From Octopus sinensis (Eukaryota): 64,000 bases of DNA. The notes under the pieces are model-generated. The model had not been told where the DNA came from. It made no database searches and saw nothing but the letters and a program-made list of their open reading frames with translations. The translations under genes and the position numbers were made by a program. The DNA is taken from NCBI RefSeq assembly GCF_006345805.1, contig NC_043007.1, positions 12,648,001-12,712,000 on the forward strand. The letters run 5' to 3'. Of this stretch, positions 12,392 through 61,549 are shown piece after piece. Position 1 is the first letter of the stretch, and each line of letters begins with the position of its first letter.

Positions 12392-13820
12392 ATTTGGCTC
12401 AAAAGCAAATAGCAAGGCCATGTAGGGGGACATGGAGTTAAGTACAGGGTGGTGTTCATGTAAAGAGTTCAGGCCACTTGAGGTCCAGGGAGGCTTTGAA
12501 CAAAGCGGTCGTCGGCATCTTCACCATCTCATCTGGCAGCTTGTTCCACGGATCCGCAACCCGGACGGAGAAAGCTCCTCTCCTTCGATTGAGATGAAAT
12601 CGTCGCAGGTAAAGCTTTTCGGAATGACCCCGCAGCCGACGCTCCGGAGCAGGAGTGAAGAACAGCTCTTTCGAGAGGTTACACTTCCCGCTTATGATGT
12701 TGTGGGCGAGAATGAGATCACCACGGCGGCGGCGTTTTTCAAGAGAATAAAGGTCGAGCGTCCTCAGCCTTTCTTCGTAGGACAAATTTTTGAGACCATG
12801 AACCATGCGGGTAGCCAGCCTCTGGACTCTTTCGAGGTGCTGTATGTCTTTGAGGAGATAAGGAGAAGAGGCTTGAATCCCATACTCCAATATGGGTCTC
12901 ACCAGCGTGACATAGAGTGGCAGGAATATGGCTGCTGTGAGCACTCCGAATGACCGTCGAATCAAAAACAGAATTCCGCGCGCTTTGTTGGCAGCATGGA
13001 CGCACTGGGCCGAAGGCGAAAAGGAGGAATCCACCAAGATACCCAGGTCCTTTACCTGATCGGTCCTCTCCAGCAGCAGACGACCCGGCTCGAAATCAAG
13101 TTGAGTTGTAGGAGTAGAGCCGACAGGCAGATGACAGCACTTTGACACGTTCAGACACAGGTCCCAATCGTTAGACCACTTCCAAATTTGGTGGAGGCAT
13201 CGACGAAGATCCTCTATACTACCGCGAGGAGCGACCAGTTTGATATCGTCGGCAAATAGAAGGGTGTGTTGCGTGAGGTCGTCGGGCAAGTCATTTATGA
13301 AGACTAAGAACAACAAGGGCCCAAGCACTGAACCTTGAGGCACGCCACTGCTCGCACTGGAGACGTCGGACCGCGAACCATTAACTTGAACTTGGAAGGA
13401 GCGATCTGAGAGGAAGGCACCAACCCATCGTACAATATCCGGATGGAAACTATATGCTTGAAGCTTGACAAGTAGTAGGCGGTGGTTTACCGAGTCAAAA
13501 GCTTTGGCAAAGTCCAATAAAACGATGTCAACAGCATCACTATCATCGAGGATGCACGTCACCAATTCTTCCATTACTAGTAAGTTGGTCAAGCATGATC
13601 TCTTCGGCACGAAGCCGTGTTGGGAATCAGTGATCGAGGCTGTGCTTAGGAGGTGGAGCATCATACTTTTCTTAAGGATGGTTTCGAACATCTTGCTGAT
13701 TATTGATGTAAGGGAAACCGGTCGGTAGTTAAGCGGGTCTTCGCGGCTCCCTTTCTTGAAAATTGGGCAGATTATCGCTGTTCTCCAGTCTGCAGGTATA
13801 ACACCCGTCGCCAATGACAT
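12363..13820 (-). mobile_element. 5'-truncated CR1-clade non-LTR retrotransposon with (TAAC)n tail
   Basis: Uninterrupted RT ORF, short 3' UTR 12392-12455, (GTTA)n run on + at ~12360-12391, possible ATTGTT target duplication at 12357-12362 and 13821-13826. Confidence 0.92.
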
Positions 13821-13841
13821 ATTGTTCTTGTAACATTGCAA
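12456..13841 (-). CDS. Reverse transcriptase plus C-terminal domain of LINE ORF2 (no endonuclease; first few codons are flank-derived)
   Basis: RT motifs NYRPVSLTS, QHGF, LLDFAKAFDSV, GVPQGSVLGPLLFLVFINDL, LFADD, KDLG; CR1-type C-terminus LVRPILEY, LERVQR, RRRGDLI, RGH, FSVRV..WNKLP. Confidence 0.93.
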   Translation of the reverse strand: MQCYKNNMSLATGVIPADWRTAIICPIFKKGSREDPLNYRPVSLTSIISKMFETILKKSMMLHLLSTASITDSQHGFVPKRSCLTNLLVMEELVTCILDDSDAVDIVLLDFAKAFDSVNHRLLLVKLQAYSFHPDIVRWVGAFLSDRSFQVQVNGSRSDVSSASSGVPQGSVLGPLLFLVFINDLPDDLTQHTLLFADDIKLVAPRGSIEDLRRCLHQIWKWSNDWDLCLNVSKCCHLPVGSTPTTQLDFEPGRLLLERTDQVKDLGILVDSSFSPSAQCVHAANKARGILFLIRRSFGVLTAAIFLPLYVTLVRPILEYGIQASSPYLLKDIQHLERVQRLATRMVHGLKNLSYEERLRTLDLYSLEKRRRRGDLILAHNIISGKCNLSKELFFTPAPERRLRGHSEKLYLRRFHLNRRRGAFSVRVADPWNKLPDEMVKMPTTALFKASLDLKWPELFT

Positions 13842-14085
13842 GAAGCACCATGATTGTTTTGACTTAACTAATATTTACACCCTTTGCTATAACATAACAG
13901 GCTTTAATCACATTTCCGGCTTACCAAATTCCACTAACAATTTATTGATCAACTTTAGGCTGTGAGAGAAGATACTTGCTCAAGATTCCATCCAGTGGGA
14001 ATCAAGCCCAGAGCCACACAACCATGCCTGTTTATATTTTCTCTTAGCACAGGATGTTACATTAAATTTGTTGAAAATACTAACA

Positions 14086-14481: not shown

Positions 14482-14896
14482 TGACTTAATGTCTTTTATT
14501 TAAAAAAATGTAGTAAAATATGCATTCTTACTTGAGAGTAAAAGCTATAGCCTGAGGTTTGGGTTTTGTAATTTAAATACTGCTTTGACATTTTATTTAT
14601 CGTTCAGATATGAATAAAATGTTGAAGTGAGGAGGTGTTATTTTTTACTCTGTGTTTAATATATTGTTGTGGGTGGAAATTGTTACAAGTGTTATTGTAA
14701 GACAATTCCTTGTCAAAAACTAGATTGTGCATTGAAAAAGAACAACAACAAAGAGAATCCACAAATAATCTTTATATAAAGCCTGCTTTTTGTATCAATT
14801 GTTGAGTCATTGTAATAAAATTCTCACATGCTATCATAACCACATTCTCATTTATTTATTTTTCTTTCTAATTTTAGGTTAACTGTCAGCTGTAAC

Positions 14897-15104
14897 ATGT
14901 CTGTTATGGATGAGTATAACAACCAAGCAAGTGAGAGTTTCTGGGAGATAGGAAAATATAACCGGTCTGTAAAACGGATTGAAAATGGCAGTAAACTTTG
15001 TGACAGTTTAAGGCAATTAATTGAAACAAGAAGTGATATAGAAAAATCTTACGCAAAGCAGCTTTCACAGTGGTCTAGAAAATGGAATGACTTCCTTGAA
15101 AAGG
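14897..15104 (+). CDS. PACSIN: PACSIN/syndapin coding exon 1 (F-BAR N-terminus); exon begins at 14878 with 19 nt of 5' UTR
   Basis: Pyrimidine tract and TAG acceptor ending 14877, ATG at 14897. Translates MSVMDEYNNQASESFWEIGKYNRSVKRIENGSKLCDSL...RSDIEKSYAKQLSQWSRKWNDFLEK, matching the PACSIN FCH pattern SFWExGxYxRxVKRI. Donor G|GTAAAT at 15105, phase 1. Confidence 0.95.
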
Positions 15105-17569
15105 GTAAATTATATTTTGTAACATTTTTGCTTCAGTTATTGTTGGCGAGTGGCCCTATATTGTTATTCTCTGCTCAAGAAATCTTGCCGTTGCTGTAGT
15201 AACTGATAATTTGTATGTGACCATATTTTATAAATGAGTTTTGATAAGTTCAGTTGTCATGAAGAGTGAAGAATGCAATGTTTTGCTTGAGGGTGAAGAA
15301 AATAAAATGGTGTTATTGCCTGGCTGTGGGCAATTAGATAATGCCATATTTTAGCCTTGTTTGTAACACTACTGCTTGTTCTAACATGCATAGCGCACAG
15401 TGGTTACCATGGCATATTACATTTAAGTTTCTTGTAGGTAGGTTTCTGTAATCCATGTATGTTTAAAGATGAACAAGTGAGATTCTGTTGGTCAATCGCT
15501 TGTGCTACTTTTTTGAAAAATTCATTACTTTAGAATGAAAGCTTTCTTTGTTCCATATCTAAACAGTCTCAGAATCAAACAGCAACACAAGCAGAGGCAC
15601 AAAGTAATTCATTTATGATCTAAGAAAGGAAAAGAGTGGAGTCCAAGGTTTTCGGCTGTGGTCTTTCATTATGAGACAAAATGCTCTTTCTCAATGTAGG
15701 ACCTCAGTTTACAAATTTAATTCATGAAGGCTGGTCGTCACTCAAAATTTCATAAACCGAAACTATCTTTCTCCATAGGAAATTCAACAGACGGTACAGT
15801 GAATGAAAAACAAACATGTGTCCTGTGTGAAAGCTAGACAGCAACTGATGCTCTCCTCATGATACTCTCAGCCTTGTTGCCAACTTACATGTTTGTTACT
15901 GAAGACACCATTTATCACCCAAGATGTTTTATATTCAAAAGTTGTTCATAAACCGATTTGTATTTGATGAGAGATTCCAAGTGAGATTCTGCTGTATAAT
16001 CAGAATATAAAGAAGCATGGGAGATAATTGCTAACAGATGTAAAAGAGCTAAATGATGTCTCACAACGGTAAAGATCTCTTACTCAAGGAATATAGTGAA
16101 CAGGAGTTCTCATGTGTGTATGTATGATTTAAAAAAAAAATTTTATGTGTATGTATAAGTAACTATATAAATCACAAAGAAAATGTTAGAAGTTTGATGT
16201 AGTTGATGAAAGAGAAAAGGTTAGAAGAATTTCTGGTTTAATTCAGAGACTTGTTCTGCATCAGCATATTGGTAATATATCCAAAATATTTCAGGAATGA
16301 AAAGCAACCCAAACAGAAACACTTCCTTTTAATTTAAAATATTGATATATCATTCCAGATCTTTTAACAGCAGTGATATATATATATATATATATGTATT
16401 TATTGCTTGATTCAAGATCTGCTTAAAGAATATATTTCTTTGTTAATTATCAATCAGACGTTTATTTTTGTAGGTGATGATGGAATGTGTAAGTACCAAA
16501 AGACACGCCCAGATAATTATTAGTGTTGTAACCTGCACTTTAGGTTCACTCTTTCCAAACATTTTAATTAAAAGAATCATGACAATTCAACTTTTTTTTT
16601 TTTTTTTGGTAATTCTATATTTAAAAGTTAGTAAATACTAAGATTTAGTTTAACTTCAAGTCTTTGACTTTTATAATTGCTATATGTTTCTAATGTTAAT
16701 TAGTGATATGAACTGAAATAATTAGAATTTTACAGTCTTCCAATCAGTCAACATGCTATTGATCTGTCATTAAACTCTTAAACATTCTTTATTAATATTA
16801 TTAAATTTATATTTATAAATTAATTACTATCATCAATAGTTATATCTTTTTTTTTTTTATATATATAAGATTTGATAATTCAACAGAACAACCTCCTATA
16901 TCCTTTACTTATTTTCTCCCCCTAAACTTGATTCAAACCAGATCTTGCCATTGCCAAATTTTCTTCCAGTATGCCTTTGTTTCGGTTATCGTTCACAATC
17001 CTTCTCACTTGCCAAACACTGTTCCTGTTATTACATTATCAAACCCAAAATAGTTGTCTTTTTTTGAATTCTTAATTCACCCGACATCAGTTTTTACTTG
17101 ATGTTCACATTGCATGTCCAGCAAATCTAAAATTTCTGAAATATATATTTCAAAATGTACCAACCATTTATTTTGTATGTTCTTCATTGAATATCCTTGT
17201 TGCTTTTAGCTTAAATTTTGTTTATCAGTTAAGATACAAAATATAAAGATTTATCTTTCATACATGAACTTCTAGTCCAGTGCTTAAAAATACTTGCTTA
17301 TCTTTATGAATGACTAAAACATTTTTATTTACCACAGAAGTTACTTATTATGTAGTTCTCTACTAAATACTTCAATATTTGTATAGTAAAACACACTAGT
17401 AGTTTACAACTAGATAAGTGTAGTAGGATAAATTAGTTTTCATTATGGTACATAGTTATTGTAATTGATTAAAGAGGTTATAGTTTCTCTTGTCTGCTAT
17501 TCTAATTAATCATCAGCTCTGAAAATAACATTAAACATTGTTTTTATAAAACAAAATATAATTGCTCGA

Positions 17570-43131: not shown

Positions 43132-45137
43132 AGTGGCTTTTACCTCAGGCCAACAAAAGCCTTGTGAGTGAATTTAGGGTAGATGGAGACTGAAAGAAAC
43201 TTCCGTGTGTGTGTTTATTGTTTTTTGTTGTTTTTACAACCTGTGGTTGTTTGTTGCTCTCTCCTTGTCTTGACATGAAGGGATAGTTATAATCAAATGT
43301 CTGTGTTATGCAAGCAGTGTAGGGTACACGCAAGAAGCCAGATGTGGCCAGTTTCAACGCAAACAGGTTGAATATTAGGACCGGACACATCCAGTTTAAA
43401 TGCTAAAAGGTTACTTTGGTACAGTGAGATTTGATGGAGATTTAGTTGCTATTTCCAGCAGGTTGATCCACCTTGTAGGGACTAAAAGCACAGCAAGCTG
43501 AAGTCAGCTAAGTATTCTGATCTGTTTCTTTACTTTCAGATGAATAAATTGATATCGCATCCTCAATATACTAATTCCTTTAATGTCTGTCTGTGTGTTT
43601 ATCTAGTTCTCTGTTCAATCAGATTCCAGTTGGTACACTAAAAACAGTGATTGATCTGACAACGATGCAGGTGATTAGCCATGTATCGGCAAAGAAAATC
43701 ACACAGCTGTTTCATGTTTCACTGTGAAATTCGCCTTGCTTTGATCTCATCCATCTTATTGATTACCGACCTAACTTATATTGGTCAAGAAAATGTTTAG
43801 CAATAAAACTATGTAATAAGGAGCACTTAACAAATGCATCGTATTTTGTCATCATGGGATTTATCGATAGCAACTAAGACCGCTAAAAGCTGTAAGCTTG
43901 GTGGTCATTCATCTTGCTAGAAATAGCAGCCAACCTTACTGTCTTAAAAGAAAAGAAAAGAGACACATTGGCAAATGTTGTACGAGGTACATCCATTCAT
44001 CATCATCGTTTAACGTCCGCTTTCCATGCTAGCATGGGTTGGGCGATTTGACTGAGGTCTGGCGAACCAGACTCCAGTCTGATCTGGCAGTGTTTCTACA
44101 GCTGGATGCCCTTCCTAACGCCAACCACTCCGAGAGTGTAGTGGGTGCTTTTTATGTGCCACCTGCACTCTTGTATACTTGTTTCAGTCATTTTGACTGT
44201 GGCCATGCTGGAGCACCACCTTTTGTACACAAAATACTTTGAATTATAGGAACTCACTGCAAATCAATCAAGGAAACTGCTATTTTGTAAGAAAGGACAC
44301 ATTGGACAATGTAGTCTTAAATATACAAAAGTTGGGATGGTCATGGCTGGAATACTTTTTATCATAGGTCTGATGAATCAGTGTTGATTTGTGGTTAAAC
44401 AACAGCCACTACGTAGTTGTTCAGTGTGCTAGAAATAGCAAACCTAATCTCATTCTGCCTGTATCTCACCACCTTGTTAAAAGGAGGACACACTGGGCAG
44501 GGTTGTTATAAATATATCGAGCCCCTACCTGTGCTTACTCAGAAGGTCATTAACGTATAGTCAGGCAGTGTTTCGACCTCATATATGCATTATAAATATT
44601 ATGCACATTGTCATAATAGACTGTTGAGAGGTGAATTTCAATTGCACATATAGAGCACAATATATAATCCACTTTCAATACCCTGTTCGATTATATACAT
44701 CAGAAATAACAATAATCTACCAAAGCTGACAGAATTCTAGGTTAGATCAACAATGCTTTTTTTTTCCCTATTATATTTAGTTTTTGTGCAAGATATTGTT
44801 TGCATGGACTCATAACCTTCTCCCATTATTCTTACCAGAAGCTGATGTCTTGCCAGAACCACAAAGTGAATAAGTCTGAAGACACAGCTGGTCAACTATG
44901 TATCAATGAAGGCTATTATTACACTGTGGTCTCTCATGTTTTCCGAGAAATTACTGTTTTCGTTCAGTAACCTGACATTGGTTAACAAATATTATAAGTT
45001 TTCAGGTTATTAACCATCTTTAGAAATGAATATTTAAAAAAAAATATATTTACTCTTTATATATTTCCAGTTCCACACTGATTACTCCTATCTGCTCTTG
45101 CATAATGTGAACAAACATGTATCTCTTTTCTCTACAG

Positions 45138-47998: not shown

Positions 47999-48198
47999 GT
48001 CCTGAATATGGTACCACCCAGACAGCATGGAGAAGTGTCTTAACAGAAGCAGACAAGTTGTGTGAACTACATACTGAAGTAGCAGAACGATTAATGACTC
48101 AAGTATATCTACAAGTTAAGCAATGGAACAAAGACAACTACCACAGGACTATGATGAATTTTCGTGAATGTAAAGATAAGGAAGACAATTTCAGAAGG
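47999..48198 (+). CDS. PACSIN: PACSIN coding exon 2 (includes wedge loop)
   Basis: Acceptor ttcctag ending 47998. Phase-1 junction rebuilds the conserved EKG-PEYGT. Encodes AWRSVLTEADKLCELH...NYHRTMMNFRECKDKEDNFRR; HRTMMNF occupies the PACSIN wedge-loop position. Donor GT at 48199, phase 0. Confidence 0.95.
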
Positions 48199-54416: not shown

Positions 54417-54504
54417 GTAAGCTTTCATCTGTTTATTATTTGCCTAGAATTTTGTTTCATTTTCAATTTATTCCTAAATAGCTAACAATCAAAGTTCAAG
54501 TAAC

Positions 54505-54885
54505 AATTCGGTGCGATACCAGTGCAGAATCACCTCCCTCCGACAAGTCACCCCAACGAGACGTCTGCGTTAGGTGGGTCATGCCCTCCGTCGTCAACCA
54601 GGAGAATTCATCTACGAAGCAATTGCCCCAGCTCCCCTTCAGGGTTGGCGAAAGCGATGTGGTGGACAACGAAAAACCTGGCTGATAACAGTTAAGGCTG
54701 ATCTGGAACCCAACCTAGGTCCCCATGTCTACAGCGTTCACCGCTGGAAAAAGGAGTGGTTGGAGATCATGTGGTCGTTAGCCTCAAATCGCCAGGTCTG
54801 GTTGGCGTTTGTGAGAGATGCAGCATTGAGGATGAATGAAGCCAGCTCAACCCACCCCGGGTGAATGCTGTCTCAAGACAAGAAG
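54505..54885 (+). mobile_element. 5'-truncated RTE-clade LINE 3' end
   Basis: RRLR*VGHALRR...GGQRKTW...W..LA.NR..W RTE C-terminal pattern with an in-frame stop; CAAGA-like tail; AAGTAAC direct repeats at 54498-54504 and 54886-54892. Confidence 0.8.
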
Positions 54886-55098
54886 AAGTAACCTTCCACA
54901 TCCAAGCACCATCTAGATGCAACATAGACATGCATTTTTGACATTAAATCTGCTCTGAATGTGAGTGTAGCAGCAGTGCCATCAAAAACGAGAAAGAGAG
55001 AGCAATTCTTGTTATGGGTTACCCATGAACTTTGTAGAGAGAGAGCAAACCTCTGCCAAGGCAACACCAACATCCTCTCAATGATTAGCTAGGGATAA

Positions 55099-55476
55099 TC
55101 TCTATATATATATATAAACGGCAAAATGTCTGTGTGTGTGTGTGTGCATGTCCTTTATACAAATCCATAATTTTTCAGTTAGAGGGCTCGCACTTTATAT
55201 GGTTATTCAAAACCGTCCAAGGGTGGTCGTGCACATCTTTACATTTCTCCAGTCACCCCGCAAAGCCATTAAAAAATCAATAGAAGTAACGTTTTTGTGA
55301 ATTTTCTGTCCAAAACCCAATCAAAATGCCCGAAACTTGATACGCCAATTGCATGCCAGCTAGCCGTATGTGATTGGTCGGAGATTTGGACAGTACTCGC
55401 GTGTATGTGCACACGCATGCAGCTGTATATGCATGCACTAGCACTATGACTTGGCGTTGCTGGGTCATAGTGCTAG
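55099..55476 (+). mobile_element. Non-autonomous Helitron
   Basis: A|TCTCTATATA...(GT)n...CTAG|T with terminal palindrome 55438-55476. Confidence 0.83.
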
Positions 55477-56113
55477 TTTTTAAAATGAGAATATCTGAAA
55501 TAAACTTGACTGCTCTCACAAACAAGAATACTGAAAATGAACCTGACCCCCTCTCAAAAATTTTAAAATGCAGGAAAAATAATCAAGAATCCTTGTCCGG
55601 TACTGGATCGTTCCCAAAATCCAATCAGTTTGTGCCAGTCATGAGGCCAAACGTTCCTGAAAGTTTCATCTGAATCCATTCAGCAGCCCTTGAGATATCT
55701 TGTCTACAAACAAACAAACAAACAAACAAACATGACTGAAAACAATACTTCCGCCTTCGCAGTTGTTGATGGCTGTGTCTGTTTATGAGATGAATATGGC
55801 CAAATGGATAAGAAGGTAACTTCTGAGTCACAAGATTCAGGGTTCAATCCGACTCCCACTACAAATGTCTTTTGCTCTTGTCTTGAATCACCTCAAACCT
55901 TGGGTAGATGGAAACTGTATAGAAGCTCTGTAGGTAGATTGTACCTGTAATTTTAAAAGTCCAGCTTTATCACATTGAGTCACACTGACTTTATCTGAGC
56001 ATTTACACCAAGGTTACACGTCTGTGGAAATCTCGACCGCCCACAACGATAATTCTGTGAGTTTGGTAGTTCAGTTGAGCAAATAACTGAAAATGGCTGT
56101 AATCCATTTATAT

Positions 56114-56147
<34 letters not shown>

Positions 56148-57397
56148 TTTGTGTTTATTTTGTAGCATAAAAAAAAATGAAATTGTTCAATACTAACTTT
56201 TGTTAAAAGTGTGTTAGTCTGATGTATAAAGTGTAAAGTCAATAAAGATTATATTTCTGAATAACAATCAGCCTGTTGGTCAATTGTACACATCACCATA
56301 TTGAGAAGATTCACATGAAGCAAGCACACACACACACATTGACAATTACATAGTATTGCATTTATATTAGTCATGTGTTGGATTTTTTTTTAAATATAAA
56401 ATAATGAGCAAAACGCCCCGTCCAATGGACAGTGCTGAGTTATCAAACATTTAAACCAAATTTTCTCAAAACAACTTGTCCAACCATCCCATAGGCCTCC
56501 TCTTTGAGAAACACTGATTTAACCTAAATTTGAGACATATGCGTAGTATTGATCGCAGCAGCTGATGTACTTGCACATATGAATGTACGTTCCCACGGCT
56601 TTATCGATCGTATTCTCACCTGGAATCGATTTTTGTAATTTTTTCAAGATTTATACATGCCCTGATACCGTCGGTATCTACATATCAAATTTGATCACAA
56701 TCGGATGGAGGATGCTCGAGATCCTAGAAGACACACACACAGACAGACAGGCAGAACGGATTTTATATAATAAATATGTGCTTTAAATGTGTTTTAATCC
56801 AACAAGTATATAAAATAGATATTCAATTTGATTTACCATGATATTCCTTTGCCCCCTTTTTTTCTCTCTCTTCTCCTCTTATGTGACCGCTGGTCAACCA
56901 GCCTTTCAGCTTCTAACCAGCGCCTTGAGATTTTCGTTGTCTTCGTCTGCCGAAAAAGGCATTTTTTTCCAAAATACGCCAGCTAAACTAAGTTGTACTG
57001 TCCATTAGTTGTAAGACACCCGCTGTTTTTGTCCTGTTTTTACTATTATTGTTTTTTGTATATTATATTCGTGTGGCATTGTCCGTTTTTCTGTCCCTGT
57101 TTCGTATACATTTGATCCATTTTCCAAGAAATCTAATGCTCGTAGCTTAGTTTTTCCTTGGGGCTGGCCGGATCGGAGCGATCTCAAGATTAATCAGCCG
57201 AAATTGCTAGGATGATCCGGTTCTTGACTGAAGATCGAAGGCTTCGAATGTCCCGTCCGTGTTTTTTGTATCGTCTTCTAAATGTTTTACGTTCTTGTCC
57301 CAGTTTGTATTTTTCTACATATAATAATAAATATATATTTATATATATTGTTATCACAATTCTTATTTCTTTTTTTTTCTTTTCTTTTCTTTTTAAG

Positions 57398-57523
57398 GTA
57401 AAAAAACTTGGCGAGAAATTAACAAAGTGTAAGGGTGAAGTGGAAGCATCGAGAGATAAGTACAAAGCTGCATTGCATGACCTGAACAGTTATAATCCTA
57501 AATATATTGAAGAGATGACTTTT
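57398..57523 (+). CDS. PACSIN: PACSIN coding exon 4
   Basis: Long pyrimidine tract and AAG acceptor; VKKLGEKLTKCKGEVEASRDKYKAALHDLNSYNPKYIEEMTF; donor GTAAGT at 57524; 126 nt, phase 0-0. Confidence 0.93.
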
Positions 57524-60151: not shown

Positions 60152-60252
60152 GTTTTTAATGAATGTCAAGAAATGGAACGAAGAAGATTAACATTTTTTA
60201 AACAGATGTTATTTGAAATTCATCAATGCTTGGATCTTTCACAGAACCAACG
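60152..60252 (+). CDS. PACSIN: PACSIN coding exon 5 (absent from ORF track)
   Basis: Acceptor ctttctttcag ending 60151; hand translation VFNECQEMERRRLTFFKQMLFEIHQCLDLSQNQ(R); donor GTAAAT at 60253, phase 2. Confidence 0.93.
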
Positions 60253-61428: not shown

Positions 61429-61549
61429 ATTTGCTGAAATATATCGTCAGTTTTATCAAGAGATAAATTGTGCAGACTGTGAGAAAGATTTAAGGTGGTG
61501 GTCTAATATTTATGGTGCTGGAATGTCTATGAACTGGCCTGAATTTGTC
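61429..61549 (+). CDS. PACSIN: PACSIN coding exon 6 (end of F-BAR; absent from ORF track)
   Basis: Acceptor tttcag ending 61428; phase-2 junction gives R-FAEIYRQFYQEINCADCEKDLRWWSNIYGAGMSMNWPEFV (DLxWW...GxxMxWPxF PACSIN motif); donor GTAAGT at 61550. The gene continues beyond the window; no SH3 exon seen. Confidence 0.93.

What the first reader, a model, noticed from the sequence alone, without database searches (positions are those of the whole stretch)
16474..16488. Candidate 15-nt frame-preserving microexon in the PACSIN F-BAR domain
Seen: TTTATTTTTGTAG|GTGATGATGGAATGT|GTAAGT, a pyrimidine tract with TAG acceptor and a consensus donor 15 nt apart, in non-repetitive sequence 1.4 kb into the phase-1 intron. 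Inclusion is stop-free and changes EK-G-PEYG to EK-GDDGMC-PEYG (+5 aa), at a Gly-Pro position likely to be an inter-helix loop. Known: neural microexons of 3-27 nt are enriched in vesicle-trafficking genes across bilaterians, depend on SRRM/eMIC proteins and are often missed by annotation. Inference: a possibly neural syndapin isoform with an altered F-BAR surface. Caveats: another AG lies ~16 nt upstream, and chance occurrence in 33 kb is possible.
Basis: partly seen in the sequence, partly recalled or inferred. Interest (0 to 1): 0.75.

Follow-up and report, generated by a model that had tools for sequence, protein, structure and literature searches.

The report
Switch-like microexon in octopus syndapin
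A 15-base optional exon in the octopus gene for the membrane-bending protein syndapin (PACSIN) is spliced in as the main form in one RNA sample and skipped in six others; it adds five amino acids beside a site known to control membrane shaping in mammals, and it is likely a tissue-specific (probably neural, untested) switch that would retune how the protein curves membranes.

Summary
The exon is real. The sequence is as described, but its splice signals alone are no better than chance. RNA decided it: in run X1 one 509-nt contig of depth 190 joins the upstream exon, the 15 bases and the next three exons; its length matches the exon sum exactly. Six other runs, from six studies, show only the skipped form: 1 of 7 laid. 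None of 9 annotated Octopus proteins seen carries it. Tissues are not on record, so 'neural' is untested, and the acceptor lacks the eMIC signature (no UGC, 14-nt AG-free zone). The insert sits in the helix turn four residues before the equivalent of mammalian phosphosite S76. Mouse Pacsin2, bees and bivalves carry different short exons at other F-BAR positions, so this gene is a recurrent target. Inclusion rests on one sample. The scan had not noted this exon elsewhere. Verdict: a new, apparently unannotated member of a known kind.

The parts
14878..15104 (+). PACSIN internal exon upstream of the microexon (ATG at 14897; start of the F-BAR/FCH domain); ends in phase 1 with donor GTAAAT
   Evidence: RNA contigs
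16443..16447 (+). possible branch point (TTAAT, YTRAY match 31 bases before the exon); inferred
16456..16457 (+). competing upstream AG; its use would give a 31-nt, frame-shifting exon; not seen used
16458..16473 (+). short T-rich tract and TAG acceptor; AG-free zone of 14 nt, no TGC within 30 nt
16474..16488 (+). 15-nt alternatively spliced microexon, adds five residues (D-D-G-M-C) between Gly70 and Pro71
   Evidence: included in X1; skipped in X3, X4, X17; skipped in X5, X7, X9
16489..16494 (+). donor GTAAGT
47999..48198 (+). next PACSIN exon; begins with the P-E-Y-G-T turn and holds the S76-equivalent Thr
   Evidence: single copy in the genome
54279..54416 (+). PACSIN exon ending at the F-BAR tip (the site of short alternative exons in bees and bivalves)
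57398..57523 (+). PACSIN exon; the X1 contig ends two bases past it by length
60152..60252 (+). PACSIN exon
61429..61549 (+). PACSIN exon closing the F-BAR domain

Best explanation
The 15 bases are an alternatively spliced cassette microexon of the Octopus PACSIN/syndapin gene, included in the main transcript of one sample and skipped in six, and they are likely switched on by a tissue-restricted (probably neural) splicing factor to make an isoform predicted to bend membranes differently. Shown: splicing at the predicted AG and GT, frame kept, all-or-none pattern at contig level. Inferred: the weak acceptor (short tract, AG 16 nt upstream) keeps it off by default and a cell-type factor turns it on (tissue-regulated about 0.75; neural about 0.6; eMIC-dependent about 0.35). 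Inferred: the five added residues, two acidic, lengthen the turn between the first two long helices in the central bundle, four residues before the helix-cap Thr that matches mammalian S76, and would lower or alter tubulation much as S76E does (about 0.4).
For:: the X1 contig (509 nt, depth 189.8) has a 43-nt loose end before 47999 whose last 30 letters are window 15090-15104 followed by 16474-16488. It starts at 15077 and so overlaps by 30 letters the X1 contig that stopped at 15106 (depth 183.6). 28+15+200+138+126+2 = 509. Bin depths show one contig only at the exon start in each of the 4 runs, so no skip path is kept in X1 and no inclusion path in X3, X4 or X17. X1 and X3 come from one study and one organism label yet differ. 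No second copy of the next exon was found in the genome, so a processed copy is unlikely. The model puts G67-P68 of P0007 between helices 28-66 and 74-114, and Thr72 is invariant in 35 sequences and aligns with S76 of mouse syndapin I (counted by hand). The review PMC5487894 (passages) reports that S76 caps helix H2 in the central bundle and that S76E reduces tubulation. Of 126 distant relatives spanning the turn, 36 have 1-4 extra residues there, so the turn takes insertions. Mouse Pacsin2 has a 6-nt eMIC-dependent exon (PMC8797185 table S2).
Against: Inclusion rests on one contig of one run (1 of 7 laid, of 18 RNA-like runs listed); there are no raw reads and no PSI value. No tissue is known. 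The eMIC cis-code is missing: AG-free zone 14 nt against 16-149 nt at the gene's 12 real acceptors, nearest TGC at -54, no UCUC. 219 of 226 closer homologues spanning the site have no length change and none has this insert (the other 7 diverge wholly after the Gly and look like intron read-through). Nothing was tested on the protein isoform.
Confidence: 0.6

Rival explanations
1. The exon is real and regulated, but in a non-neural tissue or developmental stage (muscle, gonad, gland), by a factor other than eMIC.
For: No tissue is recorded. The eMIC signature is absent. Only 1 of 7 runs includes it.
Against: Short switch-like exons in animals are mostly neural (PMC8797185 passages). Alternative splicing in Octopus is highest in neural tissue (PMC9699675 passage). 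The mouse family member carries an eMIC target exon.
Confidence: 0.2
2. Inclusion is genotype-driven: the X1 animal carries a variant that strengthens a young, near-neutral cryptic exon.
For: Sites of this strength arise by chance about once per 10 kb. No homologue shows this insert. X1 differs from the window at several intron positions, and X1 contigs do not cover the acceptor region, so its allele is unseen.
Against: Near-complete inclusion would need both alleles to be changed. The 15 letters in X1 equal the window's. The frame is kept, and the insert falls in the turn rather than in a helix.
Confidence: 0.13
3. The X1 contig is an assembly or template-switch artefact and the site is a silent look-alike.
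Against: Both joints fall exactly on the AG and GT of a unique genomic 15-mer 1.4 kb from one exon and 31.5 kb from the other. Depth equals that of the flanking exon, and the contig length is fully explained by exon lengths.
Confidence: 0.04
4. Inclusion damages the F-BAR fold or dimer, so the exon acts as an off switch rather than a tuner.
For: The turn is length-invariant in 219 of 226 close homologues; G67, E69, Y70 and T72 are invariant in 35 sequences.
Against: 36 of 126 distant relatives carry 1-4 extra residues in this turn. In X1 the included form is the main transcript at undiminished depth.
Confidence: 0.12

Closest known systems
Mouse Pacsin2 6-nt microexon MmuEX0033441 (eMIC-dependent; PMC8797185 table S2)
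   Same: Same gene family, frame-keeping microexon; a human PACSIN2 microexon is also reported (bioRxiv 10.64898/2026.05.13.725022, passages).
   Different: Different length and, by inference, a different intron: chicken PACSIN2 (PDB 4bne) has two extra Asp at the C-terminal end of the F-BAR, which I take to be that exon; I could not map the mouse coordinates. The octopus exon lies near the N-terminus, and its regulator is unknown.
eMIC/Srrm234 (SRRM3/4)-dependent neural microexons of bilaterians
   Same: Length of 3-27 nt, multiple of three, switch-like, in a trafficking gene.
   Different: No UGC near the acceptor, short AG exclusion zone, no UCUC tract; neural use untested.
Short alternative exons at the F-BAR tip of bee syndapin (12 and 21 nt) and bivalve PACSIN (21 and 30 nt)
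   Same: Same domain, frame-keeping, next to a helix-cap residue (T181 equivalent).
   Different: Opposite end of the domain, unrelated sequences; inferred from annotated isoform pairs; no such exon in X1's main form.
S76 phosphoregulation of syndapin I (Quan et al. 2012, seen only through review PMC5487894)
   Same: Same turn and helix cap; added negative charge.
   Different: Reversible modification of the cap residue, against a fixed five-residue insert four residues upstream; a similar effect is only predicted.

Membership tests
PACSIN/syndapin | F-BAR (FCH) plus C-terminal SH3, highest similarity to PACSINs | tested here: met
alternatively spliced microexon | 3-27 nt between AG and GT | tested here: met
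alternatively spliced microexon | found spliced into mRNA at both predicted joints | tested here: met
   one run, contig level
alternatively spliced microexon | skipped in other samples | tested here: met
   6 of 7 runs
alternatively spliced microexon | reading frame kept, no stop | tested here: met
neural microexon | higher inclusion in neural than in non-neural tissue | not testable with these tools
   runs are coded and carry no tissue record
eMIC-dependent microexon | UGC close to the 3' splice site | tested here: not met
   none within 30 nt, nearest at -54; feature from PMC8797185, an enrichment rather than a rule
eMIC-dependent microexon | long AG exclusion zone and long UCUC-rich pyrimidine tract | tested here: not met
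   14 nt against 16-149 nt; 12 of 20 pyrimidines against 14-19; no TCTC/CTCT in 150 nt upstream
eMIC-dependent microexon | strong branch point (CUAAY) | tested here: inconclusive
   no CTAAY in 150 nt; a TTAAT at -31
eMIC-dependent microexon | Srrm234 with eMIC domain in the genome | tested here: inconclusive
   PF15230 match over the cut-off for profile positions 13-55 of 67; the second coding exon was not found in about 11 kb downstream on that contig with recalled motifs
eMIC-dependent microexon | inclusion depends on eMIC (loss or ectopic expression) | not testable with these tools
   needs a minigene or knockdown
evolutionarily conserved microexon | exon and flanks kept in orthologous introns | not testable with these tools
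   no other cephalopod genome is held; no protein with the insert among 395 fetched; no metagenome match

The most novel reading that the evidence does not exclude
Splicing has independently targeted both helix-cap control points of the PACSIN F-BAR domain: bees and bivalves at the T181 tip, octopus at the S76 turn. The octopus exon would then be a hard-wired, neuron-specific acidic mimic of S76 phosphorylation, switched on by an eMIC-independent route, letting one gene do what vertebrates split among three paralogues.
Probability: 0.2. Interest if true: 0.7.

Novelty: new member of a known kind. Interest (0 to 1): 0.47.

Why it matters
It adds an apparently unannotated protein isoform to the one PACSIN gene found in this genome, at a position with a known control role in mammals. 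That gives a simple test (liposome tubulation with and without five residues) of how microexons change membrane-shaping proteins. With the mouse, bee and bivalve exons it suggests repeated, independent recruitment of one gene. If it proves neural yet lacks the eMIC code, it would be a handle on how cephalopods regulate microexons, on which my searches found little in print.

Tried and rejected
Chance look-alike: this was my working reading, and overturned it. Processed pseudogene as the source of the spliced contig: no second copy of the next exon. Repeat origin: the locus is unique, though that search skips common words. RNA structure around the exon: z = 0.65, 146 of 200 shuffles fold as well. 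Metagenome scan with the exon and its splice sites: 0 matches, uninformative for an animal. No run was on record as RNA, and no contig covered 16386-16600; neither is evidence. Tip-site microexon in the octopus intron 54417-57397: no candidate by a rule-based scan, and the X1 contig length leaves no room. Fly Synd as an eMIC target: the name occurs 38 times in the PMC8797185 supplement; the first 20 places read are all GO lists of mouse targets, and the first lies after table S2. Literature: microexon+octopus (4 papers, 3 listed), microexon+PACSIN (4, 2 listed), cephalopod+microexons (1), PACSIN2+microexon+SRRM4 (1) and syndapin+splicing+F-BAR (13); nothing in the listings or in the passages read describes this exon. 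Three papers were not held. The long-read Octopus annotation of PMC9699675 (data S1) could not be read, and the supplements of bioRxiv 10.64898/2026.09.05.749416, which covers O. bimaculoides, were not seen; either may already list the exon. The +5 isoform was not folded and no complex was predicted.

Full report
Observation. The 15-mer lies at 16474-16488 between TAG and GTAAGT. The host gene is PACSIN/syndapin of an Octopus: the upstream exon is 100% identical to O. vulgaris records, and annotated O. sinensis and O. vulgaris proteins map exon by exon over the window and its flanks. That exon ends at 15104 in phase 1 and the next begins at 47999, so inclusion adds five residues without a stop. 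It is an internal exon, not the first: two alternative first exons lie upstream of the window. The locus is unique in the genome.

Chance. The signals are unremarkable. In 100 shuffles of the 33-kb intron, a strict rule gave 0.13 frame-keeping, stop-free hits per shuffle and a loose rule 1.08; the real antisense strand has one strict hit. Matrices trained on only 12 acceptors and 12 donors of this gene found 21 plus-strand and 28 minus-strand sites as good in 264 kb. Sequence alone could not have decided.

RNA. One search listed 21 runs, 18 guessed as RNA, all as assembled contigs and without tissue. I laid 7 of them. In one search, X5, X7 and X9 went from 15104 straight into the next exon; X1 stopped at 15106 beside an intron-retention contig. 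Before the second lay I noted that a start at 47999 instead of 47998 would mark an inclusion path. In one search, X3, X4 and X17 skipped. X1 gave a 509-nt contig of depth 189.8 that aligns from 47999 with a 43-nt loose end, whose last 30 letters are window 15090-15104 followed by window 16474-16488. Forty-three is 28 + 15, so the contig begins at 15077 and overlaps the one that stopped at 15106 (depth 183.6). Its whole length equals 28+15+200+138+126+2. Bin depths fit one contig per run at the exon start, so each run keeps one form only. Contigs drop minor forms, so this means main form, not 0% or 100%. The six skipping runs come from six studies and three organism labels; the including run shares study and label with X3. 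No second copy of the downstream exon was found.

Annotation and homologues. All 9 Octopus records seen and the Argonauta record lack the insert; I saw only two O. sinensis isoforms. Of 250 proteins, 226 span the site: 219 have no length change and 7 diverge completely after the Gly, as intron read-through would. This set is redundant and ranked by score, which disfavours insertions. Among 150 representatives at 50% identity, 126 span the turn: 83 same length, 36 with 1-4 extra residues, 2 longer ones that look misaligned, and 5 shorter. None of 395 proteins carries this insert.

Regulation. PMC8797185 (passages) gives the eMIC code: long AG exclusion zone, UGC near the acceptor, long UCUC-rich tract, CUAAY branch point. 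Here the zone is 14 nt, shorter than at all 12 real acceptors (16-149). The nearest TGC is at -54, there is no UCUC and only a TTAAT at -31; the nearest TGCATG lies 620 nt downstream. A partial SRRM_C match exists in the genome. So the acceptor is weak, which fits default skipping, but the exon is not filed as an eMIC target. Neural use is a prior, drawn from the general behaviour of such exons and from higher splicing rates in Octopus neural tissue (PMC9699675 passage).

Protein. The AlphaFold model of P0007, without the insert, places the site in the short turn between helices 28-66 and 74-114, and the fold matches solved PACSIN F-BARs. The invariant Thr four residues after the site aligns with S76 of mouse syndapin I. 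The review PMC5487894 (passages) reports S76 as a helix cap in the central six-helix bundle whose phosphomimic reduces tubulation, and T181 as the cap at the tip; the primary paper was not held. I infer that five added residues, two acidic, shift curvature or tubulation in a similar direction. This is untested.

Comparison. Mouse Pacsin2 has a 6-nt eMIC-dependent exon (supplement row), probably the two-Asp insert at the F-BAR's C-terminal end in chicken PACSIN2 (inference). Bees and bivalves have unrelated 12-30 nt exons three residues after the T181 equivalent. The octopus exon is at a third site. Recurrent, independent gains of neural exons in one gene are a described pattern (bioRxiv 10.64898/2026.09.05.749416, passages; its main text does not name PACSIN). 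Five literature searches showed no description of this exon, but two unread supplements may list it. The scan's notes hold other octopus microexon candidates, not this one; I did not test them.

Verdict. Real exon about 0.95; tissue-regulated about 0.75; neural about 0.6; eMIC-dependent about 0.35; effect on membrane shaping about 0.4. New member of a known kind; interest 0.47.

Noticed in passing
G000:C11, about 57 kb and 20 kb before the window (L002-L021 region): Two alternative first exons feed the exon at 14878: X1 and X5 use the far one, X9 the near one.
   Followed up: partly
window 54416/57398 junction; proteins P0026, P0131, P0132, P0177, P0188, P0208: Bees (12 and 21 nt), scallops (21 nt), oysters and mussels (30 nt) have unrelated short alternative exons at this F-BAR tip junction, three residues after the T181-equivalent cap. 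None was found in octopus.
   Followed up: partly
window 57523: The X1 contig ends two bases past this donor by length, a fork that may be intron retention or another alternative exon beginning with GT.
   Followed up: no
window 15105-16368: X1 holds a contig of depth 9 running from the exon into the intron up to a TA repeat: retained intron, pre-mRNA or DNA.
   Followed up: no
beyond the window, window coordinates about 100589, 110883 and 111517: Three alternative exons after the F-BAR, one of them a terminal proline-rich exon giving an isoform without SH3.
   Followed up: no
proteins P0195, P0035, P0141: Oysters also have 15-nt and 27-nt alternative exons in the linker after the F-BAR.
   Followed up: no
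window 12456-13874, minus strand: A 472-codon open frame that reads like a LINE reverse transcriptase (recognised from memory, not tested), in the intron upstream of 14878.
   Followed up: no
window 20189, 43134-43163 and antisense copies: A dispersed repeat carries a ready-made acceptor-donor pair 21 bases apart, which supplies many of the decoy microexons.
   Followed up: no
L022 (G000:C11337:11167-11301, minus): Srrm234-like exon with the first part of the SRRM_C/eMIC domain.
   Followed up: partly
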